A DNA stretch of 54,515 nt from a virus (IMGVR_UViG_3300006893_000010:1-54515); one strand, 5' to 3'. Shown: positions 11,440 through 29,420, numbered from the stretch's first letter. Notes: generated by a model not told the origin, from the letters alone. Numbers and translations are program-made.

Positions 11440-14400
11440 TCAGTTTACCGAATCCACTGTCAGCATTCTCTCCGTCATCGAGTTCGAGGCGCTAGCGGAA
11501 GAGAATGCCCCGGTGATTTGCAGGAATAATTGCACTGTCGAATCAATCGCGCTGGATACCGCCGTATTGGTGTCGGCGTATACGGAGTCGGCGGCAGTCG
11601 TAGCCGCGCCCAGATCAATCAACAGAGAGCCGTGGGCCTCGTACTTGGAACTCGCGCCTGCGGTTTGTGTGCCGGAATTGAGTGACAACTGGATCGCATT
11701 GTTGGTAACAGCTAGGCTACCGAGCGCTCCTGACTGAATAGCCGCTAGTGTGATGACAGTCCCGCTTCCACATCCCGATACCGTGCAGAGTTTTGCGCTC
11801 ATCGTCATCTGGGAAGTAGAGAGCGCGGGCGTGGAGTAAATCCCATCCGCTTTGATTCGCAGTACGCGATTGAGACTGTTCAGTGCCCCGCCTGGAATGG
11901 TGCAGGCCATCAATAATTGATCCGTGGCAACGTTCGCTGAGACCGTGACTGGGGTGACGTTGACGCAACTATATTGTCCTGAATATATCCCATTGGGGCC
12001 TGTTAGTGTTCCAGTCAGGATTATATTTGCTGTCTTAATAGTTCCGGCTTTACTGCCAAGAGCGCCTGTGCCCACGTCCAGCACGCCCGCCGCATCTCTA
12101 GTCAGCGATAAGTCGCGCGCCGCTGCTGCACCATTCGAGAAACCAATGCCGCTTCCGTCCACTGAGGTTGTTCCGAACGCTAAATCGCTGGTGAGTACAT
12201 CAACACCGCTGACTGTGGTAATAACGTTTGTGCCGCCCGAGTAAAATCCGTTGGTGCCTCCACCGATTCTTATTGGTAAGGCCCCGGTCGATCCAGAAGG
12301 GGTACGGATAGCTCCTGTTGAAGTAAGATTGGTTACGGTGACCGTACCCGTACCCAAATTACTGTTGCCGTCGGTGACAGAAATCGCCAGTGGGTTAGGG
12401 TTGTGGGTTACGTCGAGTCCCACGCTGTCGATTTGTAAGGCGGCATAAGTGCTAAAAACACCAATGTTTCCACTCGGAGACCCGATGTGTATGGCATAGG
12501 CGTTACTGACCGTACCCCCTCCCTTGTTGTATAGAATTGGCCAATAGCCATTCAGGGTAGTGATAGCACCAGTGTTTCCAGGGTTGAGCGTTCCAGTGTC
12601 GGAGGTCGAACCGCTCATAATGCTTACGGTGCCGTTTCCTAAGTTGTAAGCCTCACTAGCCGCTCCTATGCAATCAGCAACAGTTCCCGATCCATTGTGA
12701 TCGCATTCCGCGTGTAGTCCGGCTAATTCGCTCGTATAGTTATGAGTCGAGGCAGGAAGAATTGCGATGTTCGCGTTAACGTTGAAATCCTCTACCGCAG
12801 AATCTACAGACGGTTGGCCTAAGTAAGTGGAAAAGTTATAAGGCAGTGTGAACGGGCCGCTCGAACCTCCTACTGTGTCGGTGTTGGTGTTCTCGGAATA
12901 AATCAAGGCAGGGGATTGAATCGTGCCATAATAATTAACGTTAGTCGTCGGCCCTATAGTCAAGCTACGTGCGGGTAGTTGTACGGTCGAGCCGGTAGCT
13001 TTGTTCCAGACATGAAATGCGTCACCCGCAAATGATCCCCCATCGTTGTATTGTATCTGGGTAGTAGAACCTCCAGGGGTGCCGCCGCTCGGTGTGCCGA
13101 ATCCTGTGCCGTCGGCCTTGACATAGCTCCCTGCTGACGCACCAGGAATGATGAGACAGCCGCTAGTATTGGTCACAGGGGCCGTGTTTCCGTCTCCCGC
13201 AAGGCCAGTGTCGTCGAAGGTCAAGAACGATGTACCCCCGCCGCCTTGATCAGTTGCTAGAGCTGTTCCGATCTTCCCCTGCGTCGCTCCGCCAACTGTG
13301 CGATACACGTCAATCCCCCAAGCGCCACCAGTTGGATCAATGTGGACTTGGGGGTGATTCGTTCCATTTGGACTGGCATTGCCTAGATTCGTTGTGCCTG
13401 TGGTTGAAGCCGCCGAATGTCCGCATCCGCCTTCAGCAACCAGAACGTAAGTGTAGGTAGTTGACCCAGCCGTGCCGACATTGGTTACCGATGAACCCAC
13501 TCCAGAAAAGGCGGGGGCGGTGACCTGCGAAAACGTCAGGCCGGAAACGGAGGGTTGAATTCCCAGCGTGGGGGTAATCGTAAATCCATTGGGAGTTTTA
13601 TAGGTCAAGGCAAGCGTACTGCTTGAGTCCGTGACTTTGCCAACGCTCTTAAATGCGAATTGATCGAAAGCGGGAGTTGCATTTGACAACGACCTGACAA
13701 AGATGAGTCGAGATGATGGATAGGATACAGATCCCCCACTTGCGCCTCCGTTGGGTAGTAGCGCCCAATCGCTGCTGGTACCTGCCGCTGGGGCACTATT
13801 AGCGACTGGACCTGTCGGACCCAGAAAGGTCATATTCCGCGCAAATGCCTGATAGGTGAGCAGGAAACTTCCGACATTCCCGCTGTCACTGAGTTGATTG
13901 CCGCCGAGATCATAAACGGACGCAGCAGGGCCGTTTGTCCCGTTCGTGTCGTCTCCTAAGAGAGTGTTGTTGTGGATTGCTACTGCAATCCCGCCATTGC
14001 CGAAGTCGTTGCCCCACATAAGATATGCCCCGCCCATTGCATTGATGGGGTAGACGGCAGAGTCAATCTGAGGGAATCCTATTTGGTTATTATGAATGCT
14101 GCGCCAACACGCTTGAGCGCCGGAGGTTGCGCTATCTCCTAGGAACGCCCCCGACGTTTCTGCCGCGATGACATAAGAAATCTCAGCAAAGCAACCGTTT
14201 CCGGTTGAACCCTCGAAGAAGTTTGCCCCCCCGGATCCGAATTGAGAGAAACTACCGTTTCCTCCAATATGAGAGTGTGAAACCCTAACCGTTCCTTGAT
14301 CAACCTCGATTCCACGGTAGCAAGTGGTAATGTGACTTTCCTCGTCTATGTCAGTGGAGTCGGCAGTCAGATCGTTGACCCAAATTCCAATGCTGCCTGT

Positions 14401-15624
14401 GGCTTGCTGGCAATAGACCTGAACGTGATGGATGGCATAGCCTTCTTGATTAGGTCCACCATCGATCTTAAGTCCGTAGAAATTCGCTGGAGGGGAGACC
14501 GCGTTATAGGCACTGTACATATCCATTGACGAAAATGTATTCCTAGATGGAGTGTACCCACCACTTGCGCTATTAGTAACACGGATGTCGCCGATAAAAC
14601 TGGAGGCACAACCATCACCCTTGGCGGCAAACGTTCCTCCATGAAAGTAAGAGAATCCGGTATCGTCGATACGAATTAAACCGTCCGCTGTTCCGCCACA
14701 TCCGAATACCCTAGTTCCGCCTTGAATAGGACTGCCGGATTGTCCACCTTGTCCAAACGTTCCACCGAAATCAACCTCGGTAAATTGCTGCCCCTTGATT
14801 AGCCACTGGGAGGTGAGGCGAATGCTCGGGCAATTCTTAAAGCTAAGCGTTTTCCCGGTTATCCCGTCAATTACCGTCAAGGTGTTTAGCGCCGTAGAAG
14901 AGTCGGTAGCTCCTGTGCAATCCACTCCCGAAATGTCTCTTGCCTCAATCACTGGCTTGAGTTGATATACACAAGGAACTCCGATACCGTTAGAAGCGCA
15001 GACTGATCCTGCGGCTACTCCGGTAGGTAAGCTAGAGGATGTGTGACACGCTCCATCAGCGCCTAGATACTGTGTCCCGGAGCATGAGCCAAATAGCCCA
15101 ACCACGTCCGACGCAATCGTAGGCACAGTCACATTGAGCGTTGTTCGCTTTACGATCCCACTAGAGCCTGGATCATGTAGCCCACTGACACCACCAACGA
15201 TGGGTAATAGCGGCATCAAGGGATCGACGATGGATGATATATCCTGCGTCACTCCGGTGATCGTGATCAGGATATTGTTCTTGCAGTACGGCCCCGCGAG
15301 GTATCCTACCGCCGAGCAGATCGAGAATGCCCACTTCGATGGCCCTGGCGACACTGTGTTGATGTTATCCGCGAGGTTAACCGTGAACTTGCCGAAGGCG
15401 TCACAGGTGCCTTGCTGGCCTTGGAGCAGCGCGTCTGGGGAGTAGGGGCCAGCGCCAGGAGGGCCTTGCGGCACGAATATTACCGACCACTGGCAGTTGG
15501 CGTAGGTCGTGGGAGTCGAGTCTTGGATGGTAGCGGTCACGACGGTCGTGGGGGGAGGTTGCTGTGCGGCGATGGAAGTTATAGCCAGCAACACGAAGAT
15601 GGAGGCAATGCGGTATAGTTTCAT
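11440..15624 (-). CDS. large tail fibre/spike-like protein with signal peptide, beta-helix-like centre and FN3-like module
   Basis: Start MKLYRIASIFVLLAITSIAA-QQ; G/S/T/N-rich; GVDCTGATDSSTALN spike-type motif; GGSTTQIQYNDGGSFAG fibre motif. Confidence 0.7.
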   Translation of the reverse strand: MKLYRIASIFVLLAITSIAAQQPPPTTVVTATIQDSTPTTYANCQWSVIFVPQGPPGAGPYSPDALLQGQQGTCDAFGKFTVNLADNINTVSPGPSKWAFSICSAVGYLAGPYCKNNILITITGVTQDISSIVDPLMPLLPIVGGVSGLHDPGSSGIVKRTTLNVTVPTIASDVVGLFGSCSGTQYLGADGACHTSSSLPTGVAAGSVCASNGIGVPCVYQLKPVIEARDISGVDCTGATDSSTALNTLTVIDGITGKTLSFKNCPSIRLTSQWLIKGQQFTEVDFGGTFGQGGQSGSPIQGGTRVFGCGGTADGLIRIDDTGFSYFHGGTFAAKGDGCASSFIGDIRVTNSASGGYTPSRNTFSSMDMYSAYNAVSPPANFYGLKIDGGPNQEGYAIHHVQVYCQQATGSIGIWVNDLTADSTDIDEESHITTCYRGIEVDQGTVRVSHSHIGGNGSFSQFGSGGANFFEGSTGNGCFAEISYVIAAETSGAFLGDSATSGAQACWRSIHNNQIGFPQIDSAVYPINAMGGAYLMWGNDFGNGGIAVAIHNNTLLGDDTNGTNGPAASVYDLGGNQLSDSGNVGSFLLTYQAFARNMTFLGPTGPVANSAPAAGTSSDWALLPNGGASGGSVSYPSSRLIFVRSLSNATPAFDQFAFKSVGKVTDSSSTLALTYKTPNGFTITPTLGIQPSVSGLTFSQVTAPAFSGVGSSVTNVGTAGSTTYTYVLVAEGGCGHSAASTTGTTNLGNASPNGTNHPQVHIDPTGGAWGIDVYRTVGGATQGKIGTALATDQGGGGTSFLTFDDTGLAGDGNTAPVTNTSGCLIIPGASAGSYVKADGTGFGTPSGGTPGGSTTQIQYNDGGSFAGDAFHVWNKATGSTVQLPARSLTIGPTTNVNYYGTIQSPALIYSENTNTDTVGGSSGPFTLPYNFSTYLGQPSVDSAVEDFNVNANIAILPASTHNYTSELAGLHAECDHNGSGTVADCIGAASEAYNLGNGTVSIMSGSTSDTGTLNPGNTGAITTLNGYWPILYNKGGGTVSNAYAIHIGSPSGNIGVFSTYAALQIDSVGLDVTHNPNPLAISVTDGNSNLGTGTVTVTNLTSTGAIRTPSGSTGALPIRIGGGTNGFYSGGTNVITTVSGVDVLTSDLAFGTTSVDGSGIGFSNGAAAARDLSLTRDAAGVLDVGTGALGSKAGTIKTANIILTGTLTGPNGIYSGQYSCVNVTPVTVSANVATDQLLMACTIPGGALNSLNRVLRIKADGIYSTPALSTSQMTMSAKLCTVSGCGSGTVITLAAIQSGALGSLAVTNNAIQLSLNSGTQTAGASSKYEAHGSLLIDLGAATTAADSVYADTNTAVSSAIDSTVQLFLQITGAFSSASASNSMTERMLTVDSVN

Positions 15625-15626
15625 GG

Positions 15627-17453
15627 CTAATCCACGATCCAGTATTCCCAACACGTCTGCCCGGAAGTGGATGGCAGAGAAAAAGTAAAACTGACTCCGG
15701 TGGAAATCGCCGAAATCGTGACCGCCGAAGTCACCGCTGGAGCTACGCAGGTCGGAGCACTCGGCAAATTGCTCGCAAAACTTATCGGCTGTAAGAAGAT
15801 TCGACTGCCCGTCACTGCCGCCGAAGTGTTGACCGTGTAAGTAGTAGTTGTGGTAGGAACAACTACTGCTCCGGATGCGGCTGCACTACAGGCCGCCGGG
15901 GATACAGAGTTAACCGCGCAATTGGTGTTGGTGATTTCTTTCCCTAGCGTAACCGTGCCTGCCCCTAGGTTGGAGTTTCCAGCCGCCACGCTGATCGCCA
16001 AAGGAGCTGGATTCGCCGCGCCGCCTGGAGTTGGATCGTCAATCTGCAATCCGGCGTAGTGAGAGACTGTGCCCGCAAGTTGCGGACTGTAGACATGCAA
16101 TCCGTAGCCGTTCGTGGCTGTGTTGCTCCCGAATGTCGTAATGACGAACAGGCCGCCGTTGATCGTACCTACTGCTCCAGTCCCGGCGTTAAGTGTTCCA
16201 GCCTCGCCTGTGATCCCAGCCAACACGGTCGCAGGACTAACCGAGCCGAGTGCATAAGCCTCCCCAGAGCTTCCAATGCAGAGCGCTACCAATCCAGATC
16301 CATTGTGATCGCATTCTCCGTGTATGCCGGATAGTTCACTCGTATAGGCAGCTATCGAGGCTGGTTGAACTACGACCTGACCCGCTATGTCGAAAAGCTC
16401 AATCGCGGACGTAGAACTAGCTGTAAGGTAAGTCGAGAAATAATAGGGCCATGTAAACGGCCCTCGCGTCCCACCCGCTATGCCTGCGTTGGTGTTTTCG
16501 GCGTAGAATTGTGGAGTCGATTGTAAAGTGTTATAACCTATATTCGTATTTCCACCAAACGTAAGAGGGGGATTGAGGCCAGTGTTCCCTAGCACACCGT
16601 TCTGCGTCCCAAACGGTACAGCCGCCTTAGCGTGTAAGGCGTACTGCATGGGAGTAACTCCAGAACTAGCATAGTTAGTGGTAGAAATTGTGATAGTGGT
16701 GCCTGCTGCTGCTTGCACGATCTGGGTTCCGAGCCAACCGCTTTTCGTGCCGGTCAGACCTATCGTGTTTCCGGTTAAGCCGCTGGGCGTAAGCGGAACT
16801 GCAGTTTGTGCTATTCCGGTGTCTGCGTCGGTCCAATTTACGTTACACACAGGTAAGGTAGAAGTAGAGGTGGCGGCCTGAGTCAGTACGACGTAGCAGG
16901 TAACTAGATATGATCCAGCTCCACCCGTAGGTACAGCATAGAGATTGGCGCTGGATATAGCTGCTGCCTGCGCCGATAAATCCACTGTGCCTACGATAAC
17001 GCTATTAATCGGCCCCCCGCCAGATACACTGATCTGACAACTGACAGTAGGCGACGTACCACCACTTAGCGTAGCTGGAACACAACCAATGAAACGATAG
17101 GCTGTTAAGTTAACACTTCTACCACCAACGATGCTAGTAGTGTCTATTTGTGTCCACGTCACATTGTCTAGCGATCCCATGAGGTTGATGGCAAGGCCAG
17201 TGGGAGAGCCAGTGGTTGAGACCTGCCACGTGAATACGGTAGGAAGTTGTCCACCACTAGTCAGTAGGTTGAAGGAGACGCAGCCACCAGCAAGGCCGGG
17301 GTTGACGCTAGTCGCGGTCGTGGTCGCGTTGCAGGATACGCCGACGCCGCCGGACGCTAGAGTTTGTGTGATCTGCGCGGCGCAAGGGATGGCCAACGAC
17401 AGCAGTAGGAGTGTCAGTAGCCATAGTCTTTTATTCATCATCGTAATCGTCAT
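15627..17453 (-). CDS. fibre/adhesin-like protein with signal peptide
   Basis: MNKRLWLLTLLLLSLAIPCAA-Q; shares an internal domain with 11440-15624. Confidence 0.65.
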   Translation of the reverse strand: MTITMMNKRLWLLTLLLLSLAIPCAAQITQTLASGGVGVSCNATTTATSVNPGLAGGCVSFNLLTSGGQLPTVFTWQVSTTGSPTGLAINLMGSLDNVTWTQIDTTSIVGGRSVNLTAYRFIGCVPATLSGGTSPTVSCQISVSGGGPINSVIVGTVDLSAQAAAISSANLYAVPTGGAGSYLVTCYVVLTQAATSTSTLPVCNVNWTDADTGIAQTAVPLTPSGLTGNTIGLTGTKSGWLGTQIVQAAAGTTITISTTNYASSGVTPMQYALHAKAAVPFGTQNGVLGNTGLNPPLTFGGNTNIGYNTLQSTPQFYAENTNAGIAGGTRGPFTWPYYFSTYLTASSTSAIELFDIAGQVVVQPASIAAYTSELSGIHGECDHNGSGLVALCIGSSGEAYALGSVSPATVLAGITGEAGTLNAGTGAVGTINGGLFVITTFGSNTATNGYGLHVYSPQLAGTVSHYAGLQIDDPTPGGAANPAPLAISVAAGNSNLGAGTVTLGKEITNTNCAVNSVSPAACSAAASGAVVVPTTTTTYTVNTSAAVTGSRIFLQPISFASNLPSAPTCVAPAVTSAVTISAISTGVSFTFSLPSTSGQTCWEYWIVD

Positions 17454-20005: not shown

Positions 20006-20008
20006 AAG

Positions 20009-20584: not shown

Positions 20585-20585
20585 A

Positions 20586-20925: not shown

Positions 20926-21327
20926 TCAATACCTTACCCCTAATCGTCCTGCCGCCCACACCCCGGTGCAAGGGACAAGATACCCACCCGCCCGAGATAC
21001 GATAGTCATCAGACGACGCTCGGCACGCCGGTTGTCGGCGAGGAAGGTCATGTAGCCGATCATGCCTAGCGCGCTGCAATCTTTGAACACGCGACGGCAT
21101 AGAGTCAGCGCCCATCCATGAGGAGCGTTGGGGAGTGCACTGATACGCATGATCGTCAGCACGCCATGAGTGTTTGCGCCCAGCAACTGCGCCACGACCT
21201 TGCCGTCGGCGACGAGCGCCCACTGCCACTCCGGGTCGATCTTGAACGCCTCGAAGCCGACGAGGAGTTCCGACGGCACCTCCCCGACGTACGGATGCCT
21301 CACTTCGATCTGACGCGTCTGTGTCAC
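20926..21327 (-). CDS. GNAT-fold-like protein preceding the ejection genes
   Basis: WALVADGKVVA strand pattern; position typical of podoviral acetyltransferase-like genes. Confidence 0.4.
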   Translation of the reverse strand: MTQTRQIEVRHPYVGEVPSELLVGFEAFKIDPEWQWALVADGKVVAQLLGANTHGVLTIMRISALPNAPHGWALTLCRRVFKDCSALGMIGYMTFLADNRRAERRLMTIVSRAGGYLVPCTGVWAAGRLGVRY

Positions 21328-23939
21328 GATATGATCAAGGCCGATCCCACCGGCTTCTCCGTTACTTCATAGCTGATCGCTTCCACCGTCGCAGGACCGC
21401 TCCCTGATACGGTGAGATTGAGATTCGCGGCCCGCTTGAGGATACGTACCCGAGCCTCGTATTGGTTCTGGCCTAGCGCAATCAGCGCCGCCTGCACCGT
21501 CTCTAACACCTTCCCATTCCGTTGCACCGTCGCTGCAATCGACGATGGGCCGCCGTCGCCGCGCATCACCACCTGATTATGGAATAGCTGCACCGTGCCA
21601 CCCTCCGCGAATACCTCGGCGTCCCTAAACGACCATTGCACATCCGTCACCGGAGCGCCGAAGTTGGTTGCGCCTGCGTCCCACGCCGGGTCTCCGGCCT
21701 GCCAGCGGCGGATCGCGCCGTCGAAGAATCCCGCCATCACGGTGATCGGCGAAGACCCCGGCGTGCGGAACTGTTTCAGGACGGATATTGGGAAGGGAAG
21801 ATCGACGACCGTCCACGATTTGAGGATGAGGTCGTAGCAGAACAGGCGAGAGAGGGATCCGCCAAGGCCGATGACGGGACTGCCTGCCGTGAACGTAGAG
21901 GATGGCGTTAGCGCGTAGGAGGTAGTAGTCGGAGAGATGGAGACGTATTCGTTCTCGCTGCCGGAGCCGCCCGTGCCCATGAATACCTTCCACGACGCAA
22001 CGGACGCGTTCGACGGAAGCGTGATGAAGATGAACGCGGTGCCGATGCGCGTGGACCCGTGGTGTATGGGATTGCTAATCGACACGACGTACTCGCCGCT
22101 GGAGAACGTCTGCCCTCCGATGGAAGTGAACTGGACGATGAAGCGGTAGGTGCCTGCTGTGAAGAACGGGCCGACAGTGTTGCCGAATGTTGTGATGCTA
22201 ACGCCGTCGAACACCGCCGTAGCCAATCCCTGCAATGGCACCGCGCACACATACATTGGGGGGTTGGCCGTCTGTGCCGCTTTGGCGAAGTATAGGTAGG
22301 ATTGGTCGATGGGCGTGATATCGCTCTCGGTAGACTCGGGGAACAGATACGGGCGAATGGCCTCTGGATCCTGTAACTTGTCTGAGATCCCATCCGTCAC
22401 CGCGAATCCCAAGTGAGAGAGCCGCATGATGCCGTAGCCAGGGACGAATTGCAGCGTCCGGGGTGCGACACATCCCAGATCCGTCTGTAGCCGCGTGATA
22501 GCGAAGTCCGTCGCGCCGAACACTCCCTGGATCAGATACGACGAGAAGTTCTTGAAGAACATGAGGAAGTTTTGCGGCGCGATCCCAGCCTCGGCCACGG
22601 TGAACGCCTTGATCCCGGTGCATTGGTCGCCGTCGTCGGGGGAGATCTGCGCCGCGTTCAACGGATTCCAAGACGCTGGATTGTTGAGGTCCGACATGCG
22701 AAGGGCCGAGGGGCCGTCGAGCTGATCGGCGGATTTGACGACGCCGGTGTTCGCCACCCACAGGGAGCCAGCGTAGACTTCGGCGTGAGCTGCACCACGC
22801 GGGGGCGGGGAGTTGCTGACCTGGCCCGAGTTCTTCCATAGGATATTATTGTCGGCGATGGTCGAGCCTAGTGTGGCGGAGAACGCTGGCGCGCTACCAC
22901 TGCCAGTGACGCCACCCTGCGACGCTGTAAACACGTAGAGTACAGAGCTAATACTCACCTGGATCTGGTCGCCTTGGTTAAATACCGTTGAGGTCGCCCA
23001 TACTGGATAGGAGGCGCTAAAGGAGTTGGTGATCTGGGTAGTCCCTCCGGTGGTCCCGTCGCTGGTATATGGCGTGATCCCGTTTCCTAGCGCCAGGATC
23101 ATCTTGTTGACGAACTGGACGATCTGTGGCAAGGGAGAGAGGTTGCCAGAGACGCCGCCGGTAGGGGTCGGAGGGGCGTAGCCGCTACCGCCTCCGCCAC
23201 CAGAGCCAGAGCCGCCGTAGCCGCCACCCGTGCCACCACCCTCGACGGGGAGGAAGTCGGCTGGGAGCGTCTTGATGATCTGCGCCACGCCGTAGGAGGG
23301 GAAGGTGAAGGCGTAGAACTCGCATACCTGCGTCGTGTCGGCGACCGGAGGCGTCCCTGCGCCAAGCGATATATCAGCGGTATTATCCGTGTAGGCTACA
23401 GTAGATTGTCCCGCGACCGTGGCGACGAATTTCTCGGTCCCCGTCGCTCCGCCCGCGACCGTCCGGTATACGTTATACCCCCCAACGGCGTTCACTAGCG
23501 CTGTCCAAGTCAGCGATCCCTTCTGCGCGGTCAGCGCTACGGTGACTTCGTTCGACGGCAGAGTCTCGCCGCCCGCACCGTCGAGGCCGGTGATGACGTA
23601 TTTATACGTGCCGGTGAGGACGCCGGATGCGCCAGCGGATGCAGCGAGGCTGACCGGCGTGCCAAGGTGCGTCGAGAGATCCTTGACGATGCCGAAGTAG
23701 GCAGCGTTAGCGCCAACCGGCTGGAATAGGAATACTTCCGTGATCGGCCCGAACGCGGATTGGAGCGCGCCGTTGAATTGCGCGATCAGGAGGGAGCCGT
23801 CGCAGGTCTTGAGTGCGCCACGACGGGTGAGGAGAAGGTTGGAGACGCGCGCGATGGATCCCTTCGGCTGAGCGTAGCGGTCAAAGCCGGACTGGAGACC
23901 CTTGAGCCAGCGAGAATGTGTAATAGGCTTGGCACTCAT
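21324..23939 (-). CDS. tail nozzle / DNA stabilisation protein (P22 gp10-like) with inserted FN3/Ig-like domains
   Basis: Size and position; LRMSDLNNPASW, LGCVAPRTL, LFCYDL..KSW beta-propeller-type motifs. Confidence 0.7.
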   Translation of the reverse strand: MSAKPITHSRWLKGLQSGFDRYAQPKGSIARVSNLLLTRRGALKTCDGSLLIAQFNGALQSAFGPITEVFLFQPVGANAAYFGIVKDLSTHLGTPVSLAASAGASGVLTGTYKYVITGLDGAGGETLPSNEVTVALTAQKGSLTWTALVNAVGGYNVYRTVAGGATGTEKFVATVAGQSTVAYTDNTADISLGAGTPPVADTTQVCEFYAFTFPSYGVAQIIKTLPADFLPVEGGGTGGGYGGSGSGGGGGSGYAPPTPTGGVSGNLSPLPQIVQFVNKMILALGNGITPYTSDGTTGGTTQITNSFSASYPVWATSTVFNQGDQIQVSISSVLYVFTASQGGVTGSGSAPAFSATLGSTIADNNILWKNSGQVSNSPPPRGAAHAEVYAGSLWVANTGVVKSADQLDGPSALRMSDLNNPASWNPLNAAQISPDDGDQCTGIKAFTVAEAGIAPQNFLMFFKNFSSYLIQGVFGATDFAITRLQTDLGCVAPRTLQFVPGYGIMRLSHLGFAVTDGISDKLQDPEAIRPYLFPESTESDITPIDQSYLYFAKAAQTANPPMYVCAVPLQGLATAVFDGVSITTFGNTVGPFFTAGTYRFIVQFTSIGGQTFSSGEYVVSISNPIHHGSTRIGTAFIFITLPSNASVASWKVFMGTGGSGSENEYVSISPTTTSYALTPSSTFTAGSPVIGLGGSLSRLFCYDLILKSWTVVDLPFPISVLKQFRTPGSSPITVMAGFFDGAIRRWQAGDPAWDAGATNFGAPVTDVQWSFRDAEVFAEGGTVQLFHNQVVMRGDGGPSSIAATVQRNGKVLETVQAALIALGQNQYEARVRILKRAANLNLTVSGSGPATVEAISYEVTEKPVGSALIIS

Positions 23940-25177
23940 GGGATCAGCACTCCGCCGAACCGCGACCCGAGACCCGCAGCCGTCTCTGGCCCGATGCCGC
24001 CGTATGCGTTGATCTGGCGAGGCCCCGCGATAATCCGGTTGGCGCTCAAGTCCTTCATCTTAGCCTCCGCCTCCTTCAGGTTCGCGGCGGCTCCCGCCTC
24101 GTCCTGCTCGGCCTTGCGGAAGCGGTATAGGATGTAGCTGACCAGCGCCTCGTCCCATCCTGGTGGGAGATACAGCGTCGATGCCGCTTGTCCCACGCCA
24201 TACGTCGAAGGGACGCGGTAGCCAGCGATCATTAAGTTTAGCTCGGTTACAGCCTGCGCCGCCCACGCTGCTGGCACCGTGCCACACATCCCACGCGTCA
24301 ACCCCGTCAGTCGTGTGTTGACACCGTCGATGGCAGAGTAGTTGACAATCTCTGCTCCGATCTGGCTCATGCCGAAGCCGAGGACATAGTTGGCGACGGA
24401 GGTGAGGCTGGCGACGGTATCCGTGATCGCCATTGACAGCGCCAGCGTAGTCTGATTCGACGTGCGGTTGGGCTGGGGCCAGCACTCGACCATCAGCCGG
24501 TCGGAGGCTTGGAACACGACCAACATGCCAGCGTAGCCAGGAACCGGGTTGCGCCGGAATACGTTGCTCTTGGCGAGGAGTCCTAGAGGATAGCCGTCGT
24601 ACCACGCCGAGTCGATCTTCTTCCAATAGCCGGGGACGGTATATAGTCCTTGGCCGCCGATGGTCCCGACCGCGCCAAAGTCCGGCAGGCCGCCGTGATT
24701 CTTGGCCGCCGCCCAGCCGAGAGCTTGGTTGAGCCAGCGGTAGAGGGCGAATACGCCGACCGCGCTACCGTCGGTATCTGGCATGTAGGCAGTCGAGCGG
24801 GCGGGAGGGTTCTGCGCTATAGGATTGAGATTGGTCAGTGTGAACGTCCCGGAGCCTCCGGAGATGGCGTATTGCTGATAGGCAGACTCCGCACCGGAGG
24901 CGGTCCCCCAATAGATACGGATGAAGGTAGCGGCAGGTGAGCAGGTGATCGGAACAGCGATGTTGCTGATGGCGCTAAGGGTGATAGACGCCTCCGTCGC
25001 GCCGACGGACTCGCCCCATTGGTTGAGTTGGGTGGCGACAAGGTAGTAGGTGCCAGCAGGGAAGGATGGGAATACGCTCAGGGGCGCGAGCGTACCGATG
25101 ACCGGCGCGTCAAGGGATTGCGGCAGGTCCGTCATCGACTCACGCGCGCTCAATATTAGATCGCCTACAAGTGACAT
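23936..25177 (-). CDS. head-tail adaptor-like protein with inserted domains
   Basis: N-terminal VGDLILSARE, LYRWLNQA, C-terminal LPPGWDEALVSY helices typical of adaptors. Confidence 0.6.
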   Translation of the reverse strand: MSLVGDLILSARESMTDLPQSLDAPVIGTLAPLSVFPSFPAGTYYLVATQLNQWGESVGATEASITLSAISNIAVPITCSPAATFIRIYWGTASGAESAYQQYAISGGSGTFTLTNLNPIAQNPPARSTAYMPDTDGSAVGVFALYRWLNQALGWAAAKNHGGLPDFGAVGTIGGQGLYTVPGYWKKIDSAWYDGYPLGLLAKSNVFRRNPVPGYAGMLVVFQASDRLMVECWPQPNRTSNQTTLALSMAITDTVASLTSVANYVLGFGMSQIGAEIVNYSAIDGVNTRLTGLTRGMCGTVPAAWAAQAVTELNLMIAGYRVPSTYGVGQAASTLYLPPGWDEALVSYILYRFRKAEQDEAGAAANLKEAEAKMKDLSANRIIAGPRQINAYGGIGPETAAGLGSRFGGVLIP

Positions 25178-25197
25178 AATTCCTCTGTTCTACTGTT

Positions 25198-25536
25198 CTA
25201 CTGTAAGGTTCCTGTCTGTGCTGGATGGGCCGGAACCGACACAGTAATTCCCAAAGCCAGAACAGCAGCTTTCGTTAAAGGAACCTGCGTCTCGGATATC
25301 CATGCCGTTGGCGCAGAGTTGAGCGCGTAGTACCGGATCATGGTTACGGGACTTCCTTCGACAACTAAACATTCTGCGAGCGCTAATTGAGTAGTCGGCG
25401 GGATCACGGGCCAGTAGCAGGCTGCGAGCGAAGCCACAACTACCGGGCCTTCGTAGACTCCTACGCCGGAGGGAGCCTGCGCGGAAAGCAGAGTCATAGT
25501 CACGAATATGAGCAGGAAGAAAAGTATCCGTTTCAT
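25198..25536 (-). CDS. small protein with signal peptide
   Basis: MKRILFFLLIFVTMTLLSA-Q; GAGG RBS. Confidence 0.65.
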   Translation of the reverse strand: MKRILFFLLIFVTMTLLSAQAPSGVGVYEGPVVVASLAACYWPVIPPTTQLALAECLVVEGSPVTMIRYYALNSAPTAWISETQVPLTKAAVLALGITVSVPAHPAQTGTLQ

Positions 25537-25548
25537 AAAGTCCTCATT

Positions 25549-27858
25549 TCACTGAATCCTCACCACGAACACCTGCGAAGCACAATTTGCGATTACTGTG
25601 CAAGTCGCGTTGCCGCTCGTATCCCCAAGCTGCCCCATGCCAGTAGAGGAATTCGCCATCGGTGAAGTAAATAAAGCGAAGTGACCCAATGGCGAGATTT
25701 CCGCTAGAGCGTATTCCCCTTGGAACTCAACTGGAGCCGCGTAGTTATGCGCAATGCGAATCAGTCTTCCGGAATTGGCGATATTGGCCGGAGAGTACAT
25801 CAGCATGATTTCATCCACACCACAGCCTGAGTAAACTGCATTGCTAGAGCCAGAAGACGTGGAAACCAAGAATGGCTCCTGATCCGCTCCCGAGTTCCAC
25901 CACCAGCTCGGGTGATCGTCAAGCGCAACCGAAGGGGGATTGCTGCCGCAGTAGGTAGTGGCCGCGGGGAAGGTAGAGAACGTCGAGCTGCCCCACGTTC
26001 GCCAGTCGTGGTAGGGGGTGTTGTCTTCGTTTACGATGCCGGTGTAGCCAGCGACCCAGTGACCGCTATTTCCTCCCACCATCTCGTAGACGTTGAGCGT
26101 TCCGATTTGCCAGATATATTCCCCGGCCCCGTAAAAGCAAGTAGAGGTGCAGGTCGCGGGAGTAACGACGGCCCATGTGCCAGTCGGGTCTATCTTCAAG
26201 TTGTGGATGGTGAACTGGCCGGGAGAGATAGGATGGCCGGGGCAGTTTTGACAGACCGCCGCGCCGGTCGATCCCCAGTCAGCGGTGATAGCCCCTGTGC
26301 TTGTGTTCCACGCGGTGATCCCCGACCCTACCTTGTAGAAAGCGACATAGATGGCCGTGTTCTGCGTTCCTGAGTTGGAGAAACATCCACCAAAGATAGT
26401 ATCTGCATTGTTGACTACCGGAGCTTCGCACAGGTTCACGTAGGAACTGGGAACCCCATTGGCGCTCGAAGCGAAGTCGTAAACCGTCGGCCCTTTGCCG
26501 GAGAGAGAGAGCGGGCAACTTCCGGTCGTGGGGTATGAACTCATCACGGTACCGACTGCCGTGCCAGCAGGATTCGAGAAGGAGTAAACCTTCTTTGCGG
26601 TGAGACCAGAGTAGATTGCCCCGCCAAACCAAGGGACAAGATTCCCCGCAGCGGTGCGCTGAGTGAAGCATGGTGTAGCTATCATCGTGGAGGTGTTGAA
26701 ATTCCAGATGTGAACTGCGGCTCCCGCGTTATAGGTTAGAAACTGCGATTCGTCGTTCGACCAGTTTCGATCTTCACCATCCCCCGGATCAATGAACTCT
26801 GAGTAGTTAGCCTGAAGCGGGCAACCCGTCGCATCGCCTTGCGCTACACAAAGATTGCTGGACGAGTTGCTGTCCGAAACTTCCGCCATTGGATTATTCA
26901 GCCCGAAAGCTCCATAAGTAGAATAGTTGCTGGGCTCTGGATTTAAGACTACTGTGCCTGCTCCAGTGCGCCCCGAAAACGGCGCAACAATAGGAGGAGG
27001 AATCGTAGCAACAGATGAGGAGCCGACTCCAGCCATTCCAAAACCGCACGGATCAGAGTACGGAATCCCGGTCGTCCCTGCCGTCAAGATATTAAAGTAG
27101 GCTGCATCTGTCGGGGGATCGTAAGCTCCTGTACCTGTATTCCAATCCTGCGTCGTCCAGGCTACCCATCCGTAAGTTCCGCTCGTATCGAAGGTGTTAG
27201 TTTCCTTGACTGAGGCTGCTTGATGGGTGTAACCGGCGGCTAGATCCCATTCATATTCCAGGTGGACTGTGTGCAGGTTAGGCGGCAAGTTCGAACCCGC
27301 TCCCGGAATAGTTTCGACGTAAGGGCCAGTCAGTGTGACTTTTACGTAGCCTATATTTGCATAGGTCGCCGTTCCGCACGCCGTGTAAATGGCGAACCTC
27401 GAATCGGACGAATACACAGAATCGCCAATGTTCATGTACCTTTTTGCGTAGGGGACGCCCTTGAATCCGATGCTGGGATTCAGAGATTCGAATCGTTTCC
27501 CCTCGCTGCACGAGGCGTATGTCAGTTCCGTGGTCGAGAGGTAAATATAATTCGCGTCGAAAGTGTTGATGTCCCACGGACAAGCTGGTGAATCTCCCTT
27601 GGTCGCATAGTAGTCGCCTGTTAGGAGTTGGTTGTAAATGTGATTTGAGGCCGAAAGGTTTAGCTTCGTCCCGGCCATGTGATCGGCTGCACGCAAGGAC
27701 GGTGACAGGAGCATCAGGGAGAGCATGTCGTAGGTGCCGCCCGACGGGATGCCGGAAGAAATGCCACCGCCAATCTGAAGTCCGCCCGAGACGGTCTGCG
27801 CGGAGACAGATACAACGAGAAACATAATGCCGAGCAGGGTTCTCAAAAACATTTCCAA
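25549..27858 (-). CDS. signal-peptide protein with probable C-terminal beta-propeller (carbohydrate-binding or lyase-like)
   Basis: MFLRTLLGIMFLVVSVSA-Q; WSNDESQF, IDPTGTW, ISPLGHFALFTS blade-like repeats; many Cys. Confidence 0.6.
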   Translation of the reverse strand: MEMFLRTLLGIMFLVVSVSAQTVSGGLQIGGGISSGIPSGGTYDMLSLMLLSPSLRAADHMAGTKLNLSASNHIYNQLLTGDYYATKGDSPACPWDINTFDANYIYLSTTELTYASCSEGKRFESLNPSIGFKGVPYAKRYMNIGDSVYSSDSRFAIYTACGTATYANIGYVKVTLTGPYVETIPGAGSNLPPNLHTVHLEYEWDLAAGYTHQAASVKETNTFDTSGTYGWVAWTTQDWNTGTGAYDPPTDAAYFNILTAGTTGIPYSDPCGFGMAGVGSSSVATIPPPIVAPFSGRTGAGTVVLNPEPSNYSTYGAFGLNNPMAEVSDSNSSSNLCVAQGDATGCPLQANYSEFIDPGDGEDRNWSNDESQFLTYNAGAAVHIWNFNTSTMIATPCFTQRTAAGNLVPWFGGAIYSGLTAKKVYSFSNPAGTAVGTVMSSYPTTGSCPLSLSGKGPTVYDFASSANGVPSSYVNLCEAPVVNNADTIFGGCFSNSGTQNTAIYVAFYKVGSGITAWNTSTGAITADWGSTGAAVCQNCPGHPISPGQFTIHNLKIDPTGTWAVVTPATCTSTCFYGAGEYIWQIGTLNVYEMVGGNSGHWVAGYTGIVNEDNTPYHDWRTWGSSTFSTFPAATTYCGSNPPSVALDDHPSWWWNSGADQEPFLVSTSSGSSNAVYSGCGVDEIMLMYSPANIANSGRLIRIAHNYAAPVEFQGEYALAEISPLGHFALFTSPMANSSTGMGQLGDTSGNATCTVIANCASQVFVVRIQ

Positions 27859-29420
27859 ATAACTCCATTCGAAAAGGCCAAAGCCTTATTCGTGCTCGAA
27901 CCCACACAGGTCTGACCTTCGGCAGAAACCGTGGTGGAATCCGTTACGAGCATCATCATTCCCGCAGAAGATGAAGCGGCTGGTAAAGCTGCGACCATGA
28001 CCGGAGTTCCAGCGGTGATCGAGTTTGTCGCTACTAAGGCTGGCACGTTTACACTCCGCCCAGCTGGCGGATTCATAGATATGTTGCCAGTAATATCTGC
28101 GTAGATGGTGGCAAGTAACCCTGTGCCTGAACTATTGGTTGGTGAAAACGTAACGGACTGGCTGACCTGAGATGATCCTGTAGCAACAGCTTGAGCGAAC
28201 AACGCTGTCGGGGATGCTCCGGTAGCAGAGACGAACGATGCATCCCATCCCTGTCCGGCTCCAGGTCCAAGCGGTTTCCCTGCATAGAATGCGGAAGATG
28301 ACGCTGGATGCACATTCCAGTAGCCAAGAGTGTTGATTCCTAAAACCGTCGTACCCGTGTGGTAAACATTAACGTCAAACTCATTCTTTAGGGTGATAGA
28401 CCCACCCGTACCTATAACGGCAGGACCGTTGTCTGAAACAATAGTATTCACGCCCCAGCAGAAACCGCTGGCAACGTTGACCAGGCAATAGCCAAAGACA
28501 GGAACCGGATAACTGGTCGTTGACTCGTTGCGAATATATGCCGCTAAGCAATTGGTTTGAAGGATAGTGGAGGAGTTCGGAACCACCATTCCGCACGTCA
28601 TAGCATCGGTAGCAACTCCGGTCCCTGGCGAAGTGTTTTCAAACTGAGTAATTGGGACGAGTCCATTAACAATGAAAGTAGAATTAGTGTTATAGGTTGT
28701 GGGCGTAAACACTCCCGCACTGGAAAAATCATTGGAGTTGGTGAATCTCCCCACTCCCGAAAGATTGAGCGGCCCGGTAAGATTATTGGTTCCGCTGGAA
28801 GTGACCGTGCCGGAGAAGCTATCGGTTCCAGTAAAAGTGGTAGTTCCAGAGAAGCTGTCTGTTCCCGTGAAGGCGATAGAACCAGAAAACGTAGAATTTC
28901 CTGCGTAGGTTCCAGATAAACTACCGCCACTAAAGTACCCTAGCCCTGGTGTAACGTTACCAATCGAGGGCGGCGCAGCGAGGTTGAGCGTGCCTACCTG
29001 TGGGAGGATCGGCAGCACCGCTGCAAGGGTGGTAGTCAGAGATTGCGTGGCCCCGGTGATCGTGACGAGGATGTTCGACTTACAGTAAGGTCCAGCGACG
29101 TAGCCCTGCGCGGAGCATATAGAGAAGGACCATTGCGAGGGGGTAGGCTTGATGGTGTTTACGTTGTCGGCGAGGTTGACGGTCAGGTTGCCAGAGGAGT
29201 CACACGTCCCTTGTTGGCCGACGAGGAGTGGCGCGGGGGAGTAGGGGCCGACGCCGGGAGAGGTGTTCTGGCCGACGAACACGGCGGACCATTGACAGTT
29301 GACGTAGATATCGCCGTTAGCGTCCATAATTATAGCGCTGACAACAGTCGTGCCCGCTTGCCCTAGCGCAGAGAGCGCCGACGCTAGCAGCGCCGCGAGG
29401 ATGAGTAGGAGCGCCCGCAT
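27843..29420 (-). CDS. fibre-like protein with signal peptide
   Basis: MRALLLILAALLASALSALG-Q; FTGTDSFSG repeats; N-terminal domain shared with 11440-15624. Confidence 0.68.
   Translation of the reverse strand: MRALLLILAALLASALSALGQAGTTVVSAIIMDANGDIYVNCQWSAVFVGQNTSPGVGPYSPAPLLVGQQGTCDSSGNLTVNLADNVNTIKPTPSQWSFSICSAQGYVAGPYCKSNILVTITGATQSLTTTLAAVLPILPQVGTLNLAAPPSIGNVTPGLGYFSGGSLSGTYAGNSTFSGSIAFTGTDSFSGTTTFTGTDSFSGTVTSSGTNNLTGPLNLSGVGRFTNSNDFSSAGVFTPTTYNTNSTFIVNGLVPITQFENTSPGTGVATDAMTCGMVVPNSSTILQTNCLAAYIRNESTTSYPVPVFGYCLVNVASGFCWGVNTIVSDNGPAVIGTGGSITLKNEFDVNVYHTGTTVLGINTLGYWNVHPASSSAFYAGKPLGPGAGQGWDASFVSATGASPTALFAQAVATGSSQVSQSVTFSPTNSSGTGLLATIYADITGNISMNPPAGRSVNVPALVATNSITAGTPVMVAALPAASSSAGMMMLVTDSTTVSAEGQTCVGSSTNKALAFSNGVIWKCF

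What the first reader, a model, noticed from the sequence alone, without database searches (positions are those of the whole stretch)
11440..29420. Five virion-module fibre/adhesin genes all carry Sec-type signal peptides: possible periplasmically matured virion appendages
Seen: the ORFs at 27843-29420, 25549-27858, 25198-25536, 15627-17453 and 11440-15624 each start with basic residue(s), a hydrophobic core and a small-residue site followed by Gln (ALG-Q, VSA-Q, LSA-Q, CAA-Q, IAA-Q). The four large ones contain many closely spaced Cys. They sit where fibre and decoration genes normally lie: after the capsid genes and after the ejection genes. The capsid, adaptor and nozzle have no such leader. 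Established: tailed phages assemble in the cytoplasm, so their fibres normally lack signal peptides, and disulfides form in the periplasm. Inference: this phage exports its receptor-binding/decoration proteins, folds them oxidatively (perhaps with N-terminal pyroglutamate) and docks them on virions only at lysis. Alternatively they are secreted decoys or host-surface remodellers. No leaderless fibre gene is evident elsewhere in the genome.
Basis: partly seen in the sequence, partly recalled or inferred. Interest (0 to 1): 0.9.

Follow-up and report, generated by a model that had tools for sequence, protein, structure and literature searches.

The report
Phage tail fibres carrying export signals
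An uncultured short-tailed soil phage, probably of Acidobacteriota, puts its host's own secretion signal and paired cysteines on all five of its fibre-type proteins, so its host-recognition gear very probably folds outside the cytoplasm where the particle itself is built.

Summary
The window is a complete 54.5-kb podovirus-like genome. All five ORFs begin with a basic n-region, a hydrophobic core and a small-residue site followed by Gln. Capsid, scaffold, adaptor-like, nozzle-like and internal proteins do not.

The leaders are conserved. Proteins A and E share a 125-aa, four-Cys N-terminal domain with 375 cluster representatives. Of the 153 I examined, 133 carry a leader, and 131 of those end in [AGSC]-Gln. 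The four Cys are kept or lost only as the pairs 42+73 and 102+113. Of 19 leaderless relatives, 14 have none of them.

Mature Cys counts are even in 50 of 59 leader-bearing proteins of this phage group, against 23 even and 31 odd in leaderless controls. A likely host genome uses the same "A|Q" leaders in 23 of 24 exported proteins.

A syntenic sister phage has a leaderless, Cys-free fibre with the same N-domain in the same slot. The cultured phage Tunturi_2 shows the same pattern.

Export and oxidative folding are well supported. Docking on virions at lysis is inferred, not shown. Earlier notes of this scan report the same pattern on other genomes. My searches found no paper describing it for tail fibres.

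The parts
27843..29420 (-). Protein A, 525 aa: leader, shared N-domain, variable body with 10 Cys
29361..29420 (-). Leader of A (residues 1-20, ...SALG|Q)
28986..29360 (-). N-domain of A (residues 21-145): transthyretin-like beta-sandwich with Cys 42, 73, 102 and 113
25549..27858 (-). Protein B, 769 aa (767 aa from the ATG at 27852): leader, conserved domain at about residues 40-290, beta-propeller-like C-terminal part, 18 Cys
25198..25536 (-). Protein C, 112 aa: leader plus a small body with one Cys pair (40, 56). Small leader-bearing genes follow the large ones in relatives too.
15627..17453 (-). Protein D, 608 aa: leader, its own conserved N-domain (residues 6-148), a domain at 150-276 found at the C-termini of other proteins, 12 Cys in the mature part
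11440..15624 (-). Protein E, 1394 aa: leader, the same N-domain as A (62% identity over 120 aa), long body with 24 Cys. It sits in the slot after the internal virion proteins.
15190..15564 (-). N-domain of E (residues 21-145)
12334..12963 (-). Module of E shared with D (50% identity over 211 aa). D's copy is at 15945-16565.
23936..25177 (-). Adaptor-like protein, 413 aa, no leader, 3 Cys (context; identity by position and synteny)
21324..23939 (-). Nozzle-like protein, 871 aa, no leader, 6 Cys (context; identity by position and synteny)
17450..20924 (-). Four Cys-free, leaderless proteins (112, 191, 336 and 514 aa), taken as internal/ejection proteins by position
30626..31615 (-). Major capsid protein, no leader, 1 Cys (context)

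Best explanation
The five proteins are the phage's host-recognition set: fibres, spikes, depolymerase-like proteins and a small accessory.

Proposed route:
1. They are translated late, together with the virion genes.
2. They are sent through the host Sec translocon and cut by signal peptidase I at a small-residue|Gln site.
3. The new N-terminal Gln is probably cyclised by the host glutaminyl cyclase.
4. They fold in the periplasm with disulfide bonds.
5. A and E carry a transthyretin-like N-terminal domain. In leaderless relatives this domain heads the ordinary cytoplasmic tail fibre of the same phage lineage, so it is the likely plug into the tail.
6. Heads and tails are built in the cytoplasm. 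The exported proteins would therefore meet the particles only when holin lesions and lysis mix the two compartments.

What is shown: leaders, their conservation, host-like cleavage sites, paired Cys, synteny and modular architecture.

What is inferred: actual export, cleavage, pyroglutamate, disulfides, and above all attachment to virions.
For: Leaders and starts.

Conservation of the leader:
- 9 of 9 homologues of A have a small-residue-Gln junction; 8 have a full leader and one is 5'-short.
- 133 of 153 N-domain proteins carry a leader, and 131 of those 133 end in [AGSC]Q.
- 3 of 3 N-terminal homologues of D, and 4 homologues of B (P0165-P0167, P0171), keep leaders. P0166 and P0167 align with B from the N-terminus and share its overall architecture.

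Disulfide signature in the N-domain:
- Cys patterns among leader-bearing proteins are CCCC 87, --CC 28, CC-- 15, ---- 3. None is unpaired.
- C102 and C113 change together in 6 of 6 independent pairs. C42 and C73 change together in 3-4 of 5, with none opposite. C42 against C102 do not co-vary.

Cys use across the group:
- Mature Cys counts are even in 50 of 59 unique leader-bearing ORFs (p = 5e-8).
- Leaderless controls give 23 even and 31 odd.
- The variable bodies hold a median 2.06 Cys per 100 aa with a leader (n = 111) against 0.63 without (n = 14).

Host:
- A capsid relative (75% identity) lies in a genome titled uncultured Terracidiphilus sp..
- There, 23 of 24 detected leaders of CarboxypepD_reg proteins have the same small|Q site.
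- A Glu_cyclase_2 gene fragment is present.

Fibre identity:
- Gene order is capsid, [A B C], adaptor-like, nozzle-like, internal proteins, [D E], lysis. Relatives with 90% identical capsids share it.
- Sister phage L066 has the same order. Its fibre slot holds a leaderless, Cys-free 445-aa protein with the same N-domain.
- The N-domain model (pLDDT 88.5) matches predicted viral proteins at TM about 0.5. From rank 7 down, several are named tail fibre; the four matches with E <= 0.001 bear no such name.
- Homologue P0009 has a pectate-lyase-like beta-helix above the Pfam cut-off.
- No other fibre candidate turned up among the 25 window proteins I scanned.

Cultured Tunturiibacter phage Tunturi_2 carries leaders with an A|Q site on gp12, gp13 ('tail fiber protein'), gp16 and gp17 ('virion structural protein'). 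gp14 ('pectin lyase') has a leader without a following Q. gp12, gp13, gp14 and gp17 hold 10-34 Cys and gp16 holds 2. Its capsid, portal, gp31/32 and gp37/38 have neither leader nor many Cys.
Against: - No trained signal-peptide predictor and no experiment was available. E passes only the 95th percentile of the host-trained matrix.
- On the tree the leader state changes only about 4 times, with 2 well-supported independent pairs. The leader-Cys link therefore rests on few events and does not reach significance by sign test.
- Cys are not exclusive to exported forms. B's domain at residues 40-290 occurs at 44-65% identity in 5 leaderless proteins, and 4 of them keep Cys161 and Cys271.
- Some leaderless N-domain proteins have 9-14 Cys in their bodies.
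- D's domain at residues 150-276 also occurs in leaderless proteins.
- A published phage forms an extensive disulfide network in its tail; I saw only the search listing and the start of the abstract of PMC10811340. I recall no export being reported there. If so, Cys-rich virion parts need not be exported.
- The N-domain fold is a very common sandwich (best Z 9.0, many unrelated rows at Z 7-8). It shows no specific likeness to T7 gp17 or the P22 head-binding domain.
- Adaptor and nozzle identities are positional only.
- I know of no tailed phage that joins exported parts to cytoplasmic particles.
Confidence: 0.5

Rival explanations
1. The proteins are exported but are not virion parts. They would be free periplasmic or secreted enzymes and adhesins made late in infection. 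Possible roles are loosening the host's capsule or slime so progeny escape, destroying receptors, or blocking superinfection. The particle would adsorb through the extra domains of its adaptor-like and nozzle-like proteins.
For: - The leaders and the disulfide signature fit this reading equally well.
- Depolymerase-type domains occur in relatives: Pect-lyase_RHGA_epim in P0009 and in Tunturi_2 gp14, and a weak K1-lyase_C match in P0006.
- B resembles beta-propeller proteins of Acidobacteriota and, weakly (TM 0.38), an oligogalacturonate lyase cluster.
- In L053 and L054 a short leaderless N-domain protein is followed by a separate leader-bearing protein of 877-908 aa. That could be a free enzyme.
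- The adaptor-like protein is about twice the size I recall for T7 gp11, and part of it matches tail and esterase PHROGs.
Against: - A and E fuse the exported body to the same N-domain that heads the sole fibre-slot protein of the syntenic, leaderless sister phage L066.
- A conserved N-domain with a hypervariable body, seen in 375 clusters, is the usual build of particle-bound receptor-binding proteins (established knowledge, recalled).
- The five genes take up about 10.2 kb of 54.5 kb and sit inside the virion operon, with overlapping or abutting reading frames.
- No other fibre gene was found.
Confidence: 0.3
2. The hydrophobic N-termini are not used for export of the virion pool. They might act as uncleaved membrane tethers, assembly or timing devices, or pro-peptides removed by another protease. 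Or only a side fraction is exported, while fibres that stay in the cytoplasm are built into particles and their Cys oxidise after release.
For: - Tailed phages are known to assemble in the cytoplasm (established knowledge).
- Leaderless proteins with B's domain keep its Cys pair.
- Disulfide-rich tails exist in a phage with, as far as I recall, no export reported (PMC10811340, search listing and start of the abstract only).
- E scores weakly with the host-trained matrix.
Against: - 131 of 133 leaders end in the small-residue|Gln site that the likely host uses in 23 of 24 exported proteins. A tether or a phage-protease site has no reason to copy it.
- The leaders have no lipobox Cys at +1 and no twin arginine.
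- Cys come in pairs and in even numbers only in leader-bearing proteins.
- Leaderless homologues of the N-domain mostly lack the four Cys (14 of 19).
Confidence: 0.15
3. Annotation artefact: the true starts lie downstream and the 'leaders' are untranslated.
For: B has two possible starts (TTG at 27858, ATG at 27852) and D has three Met codons in its first six residues.
Against: - All alternative starts are still upstream of the hydrophobic core.
- The next in-frame Met of A (residue 32) would cut into invariant columns T25 and A29 of the domain.
- The leaders are conserved as protein sequence in 133 of 153 relatives.
Confidence: 0.02

Closest known systems
Leaderless fibres with the same N-domain in sister phages (L066 10001-11338, 445 aa; L053 and L054, 226 aa; P0063-P0070 and others)
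   Same: They share a homologous N-terminal domain (about 35-50% identity) at the extreme N-terminus, followed by a variable body. In L066 the slot after the internal proteins is the same, in a syntenic genome.
   Different: They start directly at the domain (MTLVTATV..., MSGYT...), with no leader. 14 of 19 lack all four Cys. Their bodies hold about a third as many Cys.
Podovirus fibre and tailspike anchors (T7 gp17 N-domain; the small fibre adaptor of SP6/K1-5-type phages; P22 gp9 head-binding domain). All are named from memory.
   Same: The gene lies after the internal core genes. A conserved N-terminal part is joined to exchangeable receptor-binding or depolymerase bodies. Two proteins of one phage share the N-part. 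L053 and L054 show the short 'adaptor plus separate spike' layout.
   Different: There is no sequence match. The fold is a transthyretin-like sandwich, and no T7 gp17 or P22 gp9 chain appeared among the 50 rows shown by each solved-structure search, which does not exclude them. Those known anchors have no signal peptide.
Tunturiibacter phage Tunturi_2 gp12, gp13, gp14, gp16, gp17 (PP885685; paper PMC11924767, of which I read passages)
   Same: It is a cultured podovirus of Acidobacteriota with a block of large proteins behind leaders, placed next to the tail genes. gp12, gp13, gp16 and gp17 have an A|Q site, and the four large proteins hold 10-34 Cys. The record annotates them as tail fiber, pectin lyase and virion structural protein.
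   Different: No detectable sequence similarity to the window's five proteins (tested for E only). The genome is larger (63 kb) with another layout. The paper's main text does not contain 'signal peptide' or 'mass spectrometry'.
Q-rule signal-peptide genes of Porphyromonas gingivalis phages (Matrishin et al. 2023, PMC10367356, passages read) and the Bacteroidetes Q-rule (PMC5837995, passages read)
   Same: These are phage genes whose predicted SPase I cleavage exposes Gln, copying the host's habit.
   Different: There the genes are five of unknown function, read as modifiers of the host surface, and tail parts are not mentioned. The Q-rule paper did not analyse Acidobacteria: the word has 0 occurrences.
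Sec-dependent phage proteins already known: signal-arrest-release endolysins, T4 antiholin RI (PMC8385771, search listing only), and the coat proteins pIII/pVIII of filamentous phages (recalled)
   Same: They are phage late proteins that use the host Sec pathway. In filamentous phages, exported and disulfide-bonded proteins do become virion parts.
   Different: The first two are lysis proteins, not virion parts. Filamentous phages assemble at the membrane by extrusion, whereas tailed phages fill preformed heads in the cytoplasm.

Membership tests
Sec / signal peptidase I (type I) signal peptide | Positively charged n-region | tested here: met
   A has R2, C has K2 R3, D has K8 R9, E has K2 R5. 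B has R4 (net +1 from the ATG start, net 0 from the TTG start).
Sec / signal peptidase I (type I) signal peptide | Uncharged hydrophobic core of about 8-17 residues | tested here: met
   The heuristic finds cores of 13-17 residues with mean Kyte-Doolittle hydropathy of at least 1.7 in all five.
Sec / signal peptidase I (type I) signal peptide | Small residues at -3 and -1 of the cleavage site, no Pro at +1 | tested here: met
   The sites are ALG|Q, VSA|Q, LSA|Q, CAA|Q and IAA|Q. A leucine at -3 is less usual but is accepted by my rule.
Sec / signal peptidase I (type I) signal peptide | Not a lipoprotein (no lipobox Cys at +1) and not Tat (no twin arginine) | tested here: met
   All five have Gln at +1 and none has RR. 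D's Cys24 is at -3 with Pro before it, which is not a lipobox.
Sec / signal peptidase I (type I) signal peptide | Positive call by a trained predictor, or shown cleavage and export | not testable with these tools
   SignalP is not on hand. As a stand-in, a host-trained matrix puts 4 of 5 above the 99th percentile of shuffles and E above the 95th.
Q-rule substrates (Gln at +1, cyclised to pyroglutamate) | Gln directly after the predicted cleavage site | tested here: met
   5 of 5 in the window, and 131 of 133 leader-bearing N-domain relatives.
Q-rule substrates (Gln at +1, cyclised to pyroglutamate) | The host follows the rule and has a glutaminyl cyclase | tested here: met
   In the genome holding L018, 23 of 24 detected leaders have a small|Q site. 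There is a Glu_cyclase_2 match of 105 bits, cut by a contig end. The host link itself rests on one binned contig.
Q-rule substrates (Gln at +1, cyclised to pyroglutamate) | Pyroglutamate at the mature N-terminus | not testable with these tools
   Needs mass spectrometry.
Podovirus tail fibre / tailspike with an N-terminal particle-binding domain | Gene in the virion module, after the internal (ejection) protein genes or beside the tail genes | tested here: met
   D and E follow the Cys-free internal proteins. A, B and C lie between the capsid and the adaptor-like gene. Relatives use the same two slots.
Podovirus tail fibre / tailspike with an N-terminal particle-binding domain | Conserved N-terminal domain joined to exchangeable bodies | tested here: met
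   375 clusters carry the domain. In the 153 proteins examined it lies at the extreme N-terminus, and the proteins run from 116 to 1864 aa. A and E share it within one genome.
Podovirus tail fibre / tailspike with an N-terminal particle-binding domain | Sequence or fold likeness to a known anchor (T7 gp17 N-domain, P22 head-binding) or to known fibre bodies | tested here: inconclusive
   No Pfam or PHROG hit for any of the five. The N-domain matches BFVD proteins at TM 0.45-0.59, several of the lower rows named tail fibre. Solved-structure matches are generic transthyretin-like sandwiches. For E, the Atlas gives only a lead to P22 tailspike (score 0.77).
Podovirus tail fibre / tailspike with an N-terminal particle-binding domain | Presence in purified virions, bound to the tail | not testable with these tools
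   Needs virion proteomics or cryo-EM.
CarboxypepD_reg / transthyretin-like domain (PF13620 clan) | Seven-strand transthyretin-like beta-sandwich fold | tested here: met
   The model has pLDDT 88.5. It matches 5aq0_B at Z 8.7 (rmsd 2.3, 80 residues aligned), 1qmu_A at Z 8.4, and the SusC N-terminal extension 9hfj_A at Z 8.6. Z near 8 is common for this kind of fold.
CarboxypepD_reg / transthyretin-like domain (PF13620 clan) | Match to the Pfam profile | tested here: not met
   A and E have no Pfam family at E <= 0.1.

The most novel reading that the evidence does not exclude
In a lineage of soil podophages of Acidobacteriota, a tailed-phage particle is finished across the membrane. Head, tail and internal proteins assemble in the cytoplasm. 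All receptor-binding proteins are exported by Sec, trimmed to an N-terminal (pyro)Gln, disulfide-bonded in the periplasm, and plugged into the tail only in the seconds after holin lesions join the two compartments. The switch between the cytoplasmic and the exported route has happened within one fibre family, with cysteine pairs gained or lost along with the leader.
Probability: 0.45. Interest if true: 0.9.

Novelty: new variant of a known kind. Interest (0 to 1): 0.78.

Why it matters
Textbook tailed-phage assembly is wholly cytoplasmic. If receptor-binding proteins of common soil phages mature in the periplasm, several things follow.

- Assembly has a late, compartment-crossing step tied to lysis.
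- Fibre stability in soil may depend on host disulfide and pyroglutamate machinery.
- Recombinant expression of such fibres and depolymerases would need periplasmic routes.
- The style of the leader, here the A|Q site, becomes a clue to the host of uncultured phages.
- The side result that an acidobacterial genome follows the 'Bacteroidetes' Q-rule widens that rule.
- A cultured system with the same pattern, the Tunturi phages on Tunturiibacter, makes the question directly testable.

Tried and rejected
Searches with no hit or no relative:
- Pfam and PHROGs on the five proteins gave nothing.
- Megablast of the region, and tblastn of E, against the phage collection gave nothing.
- The first scan of viral contigs with A alone found no relative.
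- The scan of genome contigs with the A alignment found none.

Models and complex prediction:
- AlphaFold2 of whole A with an 11-row alignment gave pLDDT 36 and was unusable. Both fold jobs were then spent, so B, D, E, the adaptor-like and the nozzle-like proteins were not modelled.
- Complex prediction with the adaptor-like protein plus three copies of the N-domain returned 'no answer' (score 0.00; controls not run). It counts neither for nor against binding.

Further dead ends:
- Sequence searches of solved structures with the nozzle-like protein, the adaptor alignment and E found nothing significant.
- PHROGs on six leaderless relatives of B and D found nothing.
- Two viral-contig scans for the genomic context of leaderless B-domain proteins found none. 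What those proteins are remains unknown.
- The phylogenetic test of leader against Cys lacks power: 2 supported independent pairs.

Literature. I ran six full-text searches and found no paper describing signal peptides on tail fibres or tailspikes:
- tail fiber + signal peptide + bacteriophage + periplasm;
- Acidobacteria + phage + tail fiber + signal peptide;
- virion proteins / signal peptides / Sec / tailed phage / secreted;
- Q-rule terms;
- Acidobacteriota podovirus isolates;
- tailspike / signal peptide / disulfide / exported.
For most results I read only listings, plus passages of four papers. Supplementary tables, for example the gene annotations of the Tunturi and Porphyromonas phage papers, were closed and may hold signal-peptide calls I could not see.

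Readings considered and set aside:
- Lipoprotein or Tat signals: there is no +1 Cys and no RR.
- A downstream start for A: it would cut conserved columns.
- Myxococcus phage Mx8 as a model: only its capsid is related, at 25% identity.

Full report
WHAT THE WINDOW IS. The 54,515 bases are the whole record, a virus genome.

The late genes lie on the minus strand in this order:
- terminase (37135-38898) and portal (33897-35516);
- a scaffold-like gene;
- major capsid protein (30626-31615; PHROG major head protein E 1e-17, about 25% identical to Myxococcus phages Mx8 and Mx9);
- an HNH endonuclease and a 153-aa gene;
- A, B and C;
- a 413-aa adaptor-like gene and an 871-aa nozzle-like gene;
- a 133-aa gene;
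- four Cys-free proteins, taken as internal/ejection proteins;
- D and E;
- a lysis region with a papain-like peptidase and a Tlde1/YkuD-like enzyme.

'Adaptor' and 'nozzle' rest on position, size and conserved synteny. Neither has a significant family or solved-structure match.

THE OBSERVATION. All five ORFs start with a basic residue, an uncharged hydrophobic core of 13-17 residues, and a small-residue site followed by Gln. The starts lie upstream of the leaders. A, B, C and D have Shine-Dalgarno-like sites; E has only a weak one. The frames overlap or abut those of the neighbouring virion genes.

A crude heuristic places the five among the six best of 66 ORFs. A weight matrix trained on 23 leaders of the likely host scores A 18.6, D 13.8, B 6.6, C 5.8 and E 2.3. 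The median ORF scores -13.9 and the 99th percentile of shuffles is 4.7. Four of the five are clear, E is borderline by this small matrix, and two doubtful small ORFs also score high.

Mature Cys counts are 10, 18, 2, 12 and 24, and the Cys lie mostly in close pairs. The capsid has 1 Cys. The scaffold and the internal proteins have none.

ARE THE LEADERS CONSERVED? A and E share a 125-aa domain directly behind the leader, at 62% identity. A search of 1.84 billion cluster representatives with A's first 150 residues found 375 proteins at E <= 0.001. I examined the best 150 together with the homologues of A from the earlier search, 153 proteins in all.
- The domain always sits at the extreme N-terminus of proteins 116 to 1864 aa long.
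- 133 carry a leader, 19 do not, and one is 5'-truncated.
- 131 of the 133 leaders end in [AGSC]-Gln.
- Three of three N-terminal homologues of D keep leaders.
- Four homologues of B (P0165-P0167, P0171) keep leaders. P0166 and P0167 align with B from the N-terminus.

Related phage genomes of 54-58 kb, with capsids 90% and nozzle-like proteins about 70% identical, have leader-bearing, Cys-rich genes in the same two slots.

THE CYSTEINE SIGNATURE. In the N-domain the four Cys columns show only paired patterns among leader-bearing proteins: all four in 87, only 102+113 in 28, only 42+73 in 15, none in 3, and never an unpaired pattern.

On a tree built without those columns:
- C102 and C113 change together in 6 of 6 independent pairs (p = 0.03);
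- C42 and C73 change together in 3-4 of 5, with none opposite;
- C42 and C102 do not co-vary.

This is what two disulfides, 42-73 and 102-113, would give. I could not check distances in the model because no coordinates are returned.

Of the 19 leaderless relatives, 14 have none of the four Cys. They start directly at the domain (MSGYT..., MTLVTATV...).

Across 59 unique leader-bearing ORFs of this phage group, the mature part has an even number of Cys in 50 (p = 5e-8). Leaderless proteins of the same loci give 23 even and 31 odd, and the window's own give 20 and 29. The variable bodies behind the N-domain hold a median 2.06 Cys per 100 residues with a leader (n = 111) and 0.63 without (n = 14).

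RESULTS THAT CUT THE OTHER WAY.
- The leader state changes only about four times on the tree, and only two independent pairs lie on supported branches. The leader-Cys association is therefore largely a difference between clades and cannot reach significance.
- B's conserved domain (residues 40-290) occurs at 44-65% identity in five leaderless proteins. Four of them keep Cys161 and Cys271, so Cys pairs are not confined to exported forms.
- D's domain at residues 150-276 also ends two leaderless proteins.
- Some leaderless N-domain proteins have 9-14 Cys in their bodies.
- A published phage tail holds an extensive disulfide network. I saw only the listing and the start of the abstract, and I recall no export being reported.

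HOST AND THE GLN. A capsid relative (75% identity) lies on a 5.8-kb contig of a genome whose title names an uncultured Terracidiphilus sp.. This is a single binned contig, so the link is suggestive only.

In that genome, 24 of 30 loci with a CarboxypepD_reg domain gave a detectable leader, and 23 of the 24 have a small-residue|Gln junction. A glutaminyl cyclase (Glu_cyclase_2) fragment is present. The phage leaders thus copy the host's own exported proteins.

The 'Q-rule' is described in print for Bacteroidetes. In the passages I read, that paper does not treat Acidobacteria. A paper on Porphyromonas phages notes five Q-rule genes of unknown function and does not mention tail parts.

ARE THEY FIBRES? 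The best evidence is comparative. Sister phage L066 (a 58-kb contig) has the same order of adaptor-like, nozzle-like and Cys-free internal proteins. Its fibre slot holds a leaderless, Cys-free 445-aa protein with the same N-domain, and no large leader-bearing gene follows. In L053 and L054, a leaderless 226-aa N-domain protein is followed by a leader-bearing protein of 877-908 aa with 12-20 Cys.

The N-domain model is confident (pLDDT 88.5). It is a transthyretin-like sandwich (Z 8.7 to the carboxypeptidase D domain), which is a common fold. Its matches among predicted viral proteins (TM 0.45-0.59) include several named tail fibre, from rank 7 down.

Bodies of relatives include a pectate-lyase-like beta-helix (P0009, above cut-off) and a weak K1-lyase C-terminal match (P0006, below cut-off). 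B looks like a beta-propeller (Atlas model, TM about 0.5 to acidobacterial clusters). For E there is only a weak lead to the P22 tailspike.

None of this shows presence in virions.

A CULTURED PARALLEL. Tunturiibacter phage Tunturi_2 is an imaged podovirus of Acidobacteriota (passages of PMC11924767). It encodes five leader-bearing proteins:
- gp12;
- gp13, annotated tail fiber protein;
- gp14, annotated pectin lyase;
- gp16;
- gp17, annotated virion structural protein.

gp12, gp13, gp16 and gp17 have an A|Q site. gp12, gp13, gp14 and gp17 hold 10-34 Cys, and gp16 holds 2. Its capsid, portal and other tail proteins have neither a leader nor many Cys. The paper's main text contains neither 'signal peptide' nor 'mass spectrometry'.

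HOW IT MOST LIKELY WORKS. The late operon makes the head, tail and internal proteins in the cytoplasm. The five proteins go through Sec, are cut before Gln, fold with disulfides in the periplasm, and meet the particles when holin lesions and lysis mix the compartments. A and E would plug in through the shared N-domain. B, C and D would ride on them or act beside them.

The mixing step is my inference. It is kinetically reasonable by rough reasoning, given micromolar local concentrations in a cell-sized volume, but nothing I ran tests it. I give this reading 0.5. I give 0.3 to exported free enzymes or adhesins, 0.15 to leaders not serving export of the virion pool, and 0.02 to an artefact.

COMPARISON AND NOVELTY. 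The parts are ordinary in build: an N-terminal anchor plus exchangeable bodies, in fibre slots. The export signal and disulfide signature on every one of them are not ordinary. My six literature searches found no description of this for tailed-phage fibres.

Earlier notes of this scan report the same pattern on several other genomes, with later checks pricing the bold reading low. Those notes are unchecked leads. I set my odds on the tests above.

I file this as a new variant of a known kind. The assembly route, if shown, would be new for tailed phages.

Noticed in passing
L019-L048 (genome holding L018): An acidobacterial genome (record title: uncultured Terracidiphilus sp.) follows the 'Bacteroidetes' Q-rule. 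23 of 24 detected leaders of CarboxypepD_reg-domain proteins are cut before Gln, and a Glu_cyclase_2 gene fragment is present (L049). The Q-rule paper did not analyse this phylum.
   Followed up: partly
L069 9802-22744 (Tunturiibacter phage Tunturi_2): This cultured podophage of Acidobacteriota has five leader-bearing proteins: gp12, gp13 'tail fiber', gp14 'pectin lyase', gp16 and gp17 'virion structural'. The four large ones hold 10-34 Cys. gp17 also has Chitobiase C-terminal and Fn3-associated domains. It is a ready system for testing.
   Followed up: partly
window 25549-27858, residues 40-290 of B: A well-conserved domain (44-65% identity) is shared with five leaderless proteins of 510-1145 aa and with leader-bearing ones. 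B alone has an extra Cys pair (93, 117). The genomic context of the leaderless carriers could not be fetched.
   Followed up: partly
window 23936-25177 and 21324-23939: The adaptor-like and nozzle-like proteins each hold a similar short stretch (GTYYLVATQLNQWGES... and GTYKYVITGLDGAGGET...), as if an Fn3-like insert were shared. The adaptor-like stretch matches tail, esterase and head-closure PHROGs weakly.
   Followed up: no
window 30093-30608; L001 171-653; L002 23-568 and 8794-9285: An HNH-type homing endonuclease gene (phrog_5046, E 1e-14) sits beside the capsid gene. Related copies occur at varying places in relatives, two of them in L002.
   Followed up: no
window 8053-8967 and 10143-10553: The lysis region encodes a papain-family peptidase (Peptidase_C1, E 8e-13) and a Tlde1/YkuD-like L,D-transpeptidase-fold protein. 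No classical lysozyme or amidase was seen among the five ORFs I scanned.
   Followed up: partly
window 41458-42990: A 510-aa late protein has a Methyltransf_24 domain at residues 348-446. The two neighbouring ORFs that another note calls glycosyltransferases gave no Pfam hit at E <= 0.01.
   Followed up: no
L017 15298-21940 (Myxococcus phage Mx8): Several small Mx8 ORFs outside the virion module start with lipoprotein-like or signal-like leaders (for example ...LFA|CGGP and ...PAAA|QVF). My heuristic flagged none of the Mx8 ORFs annotated as virion structural.
   Followed up: no
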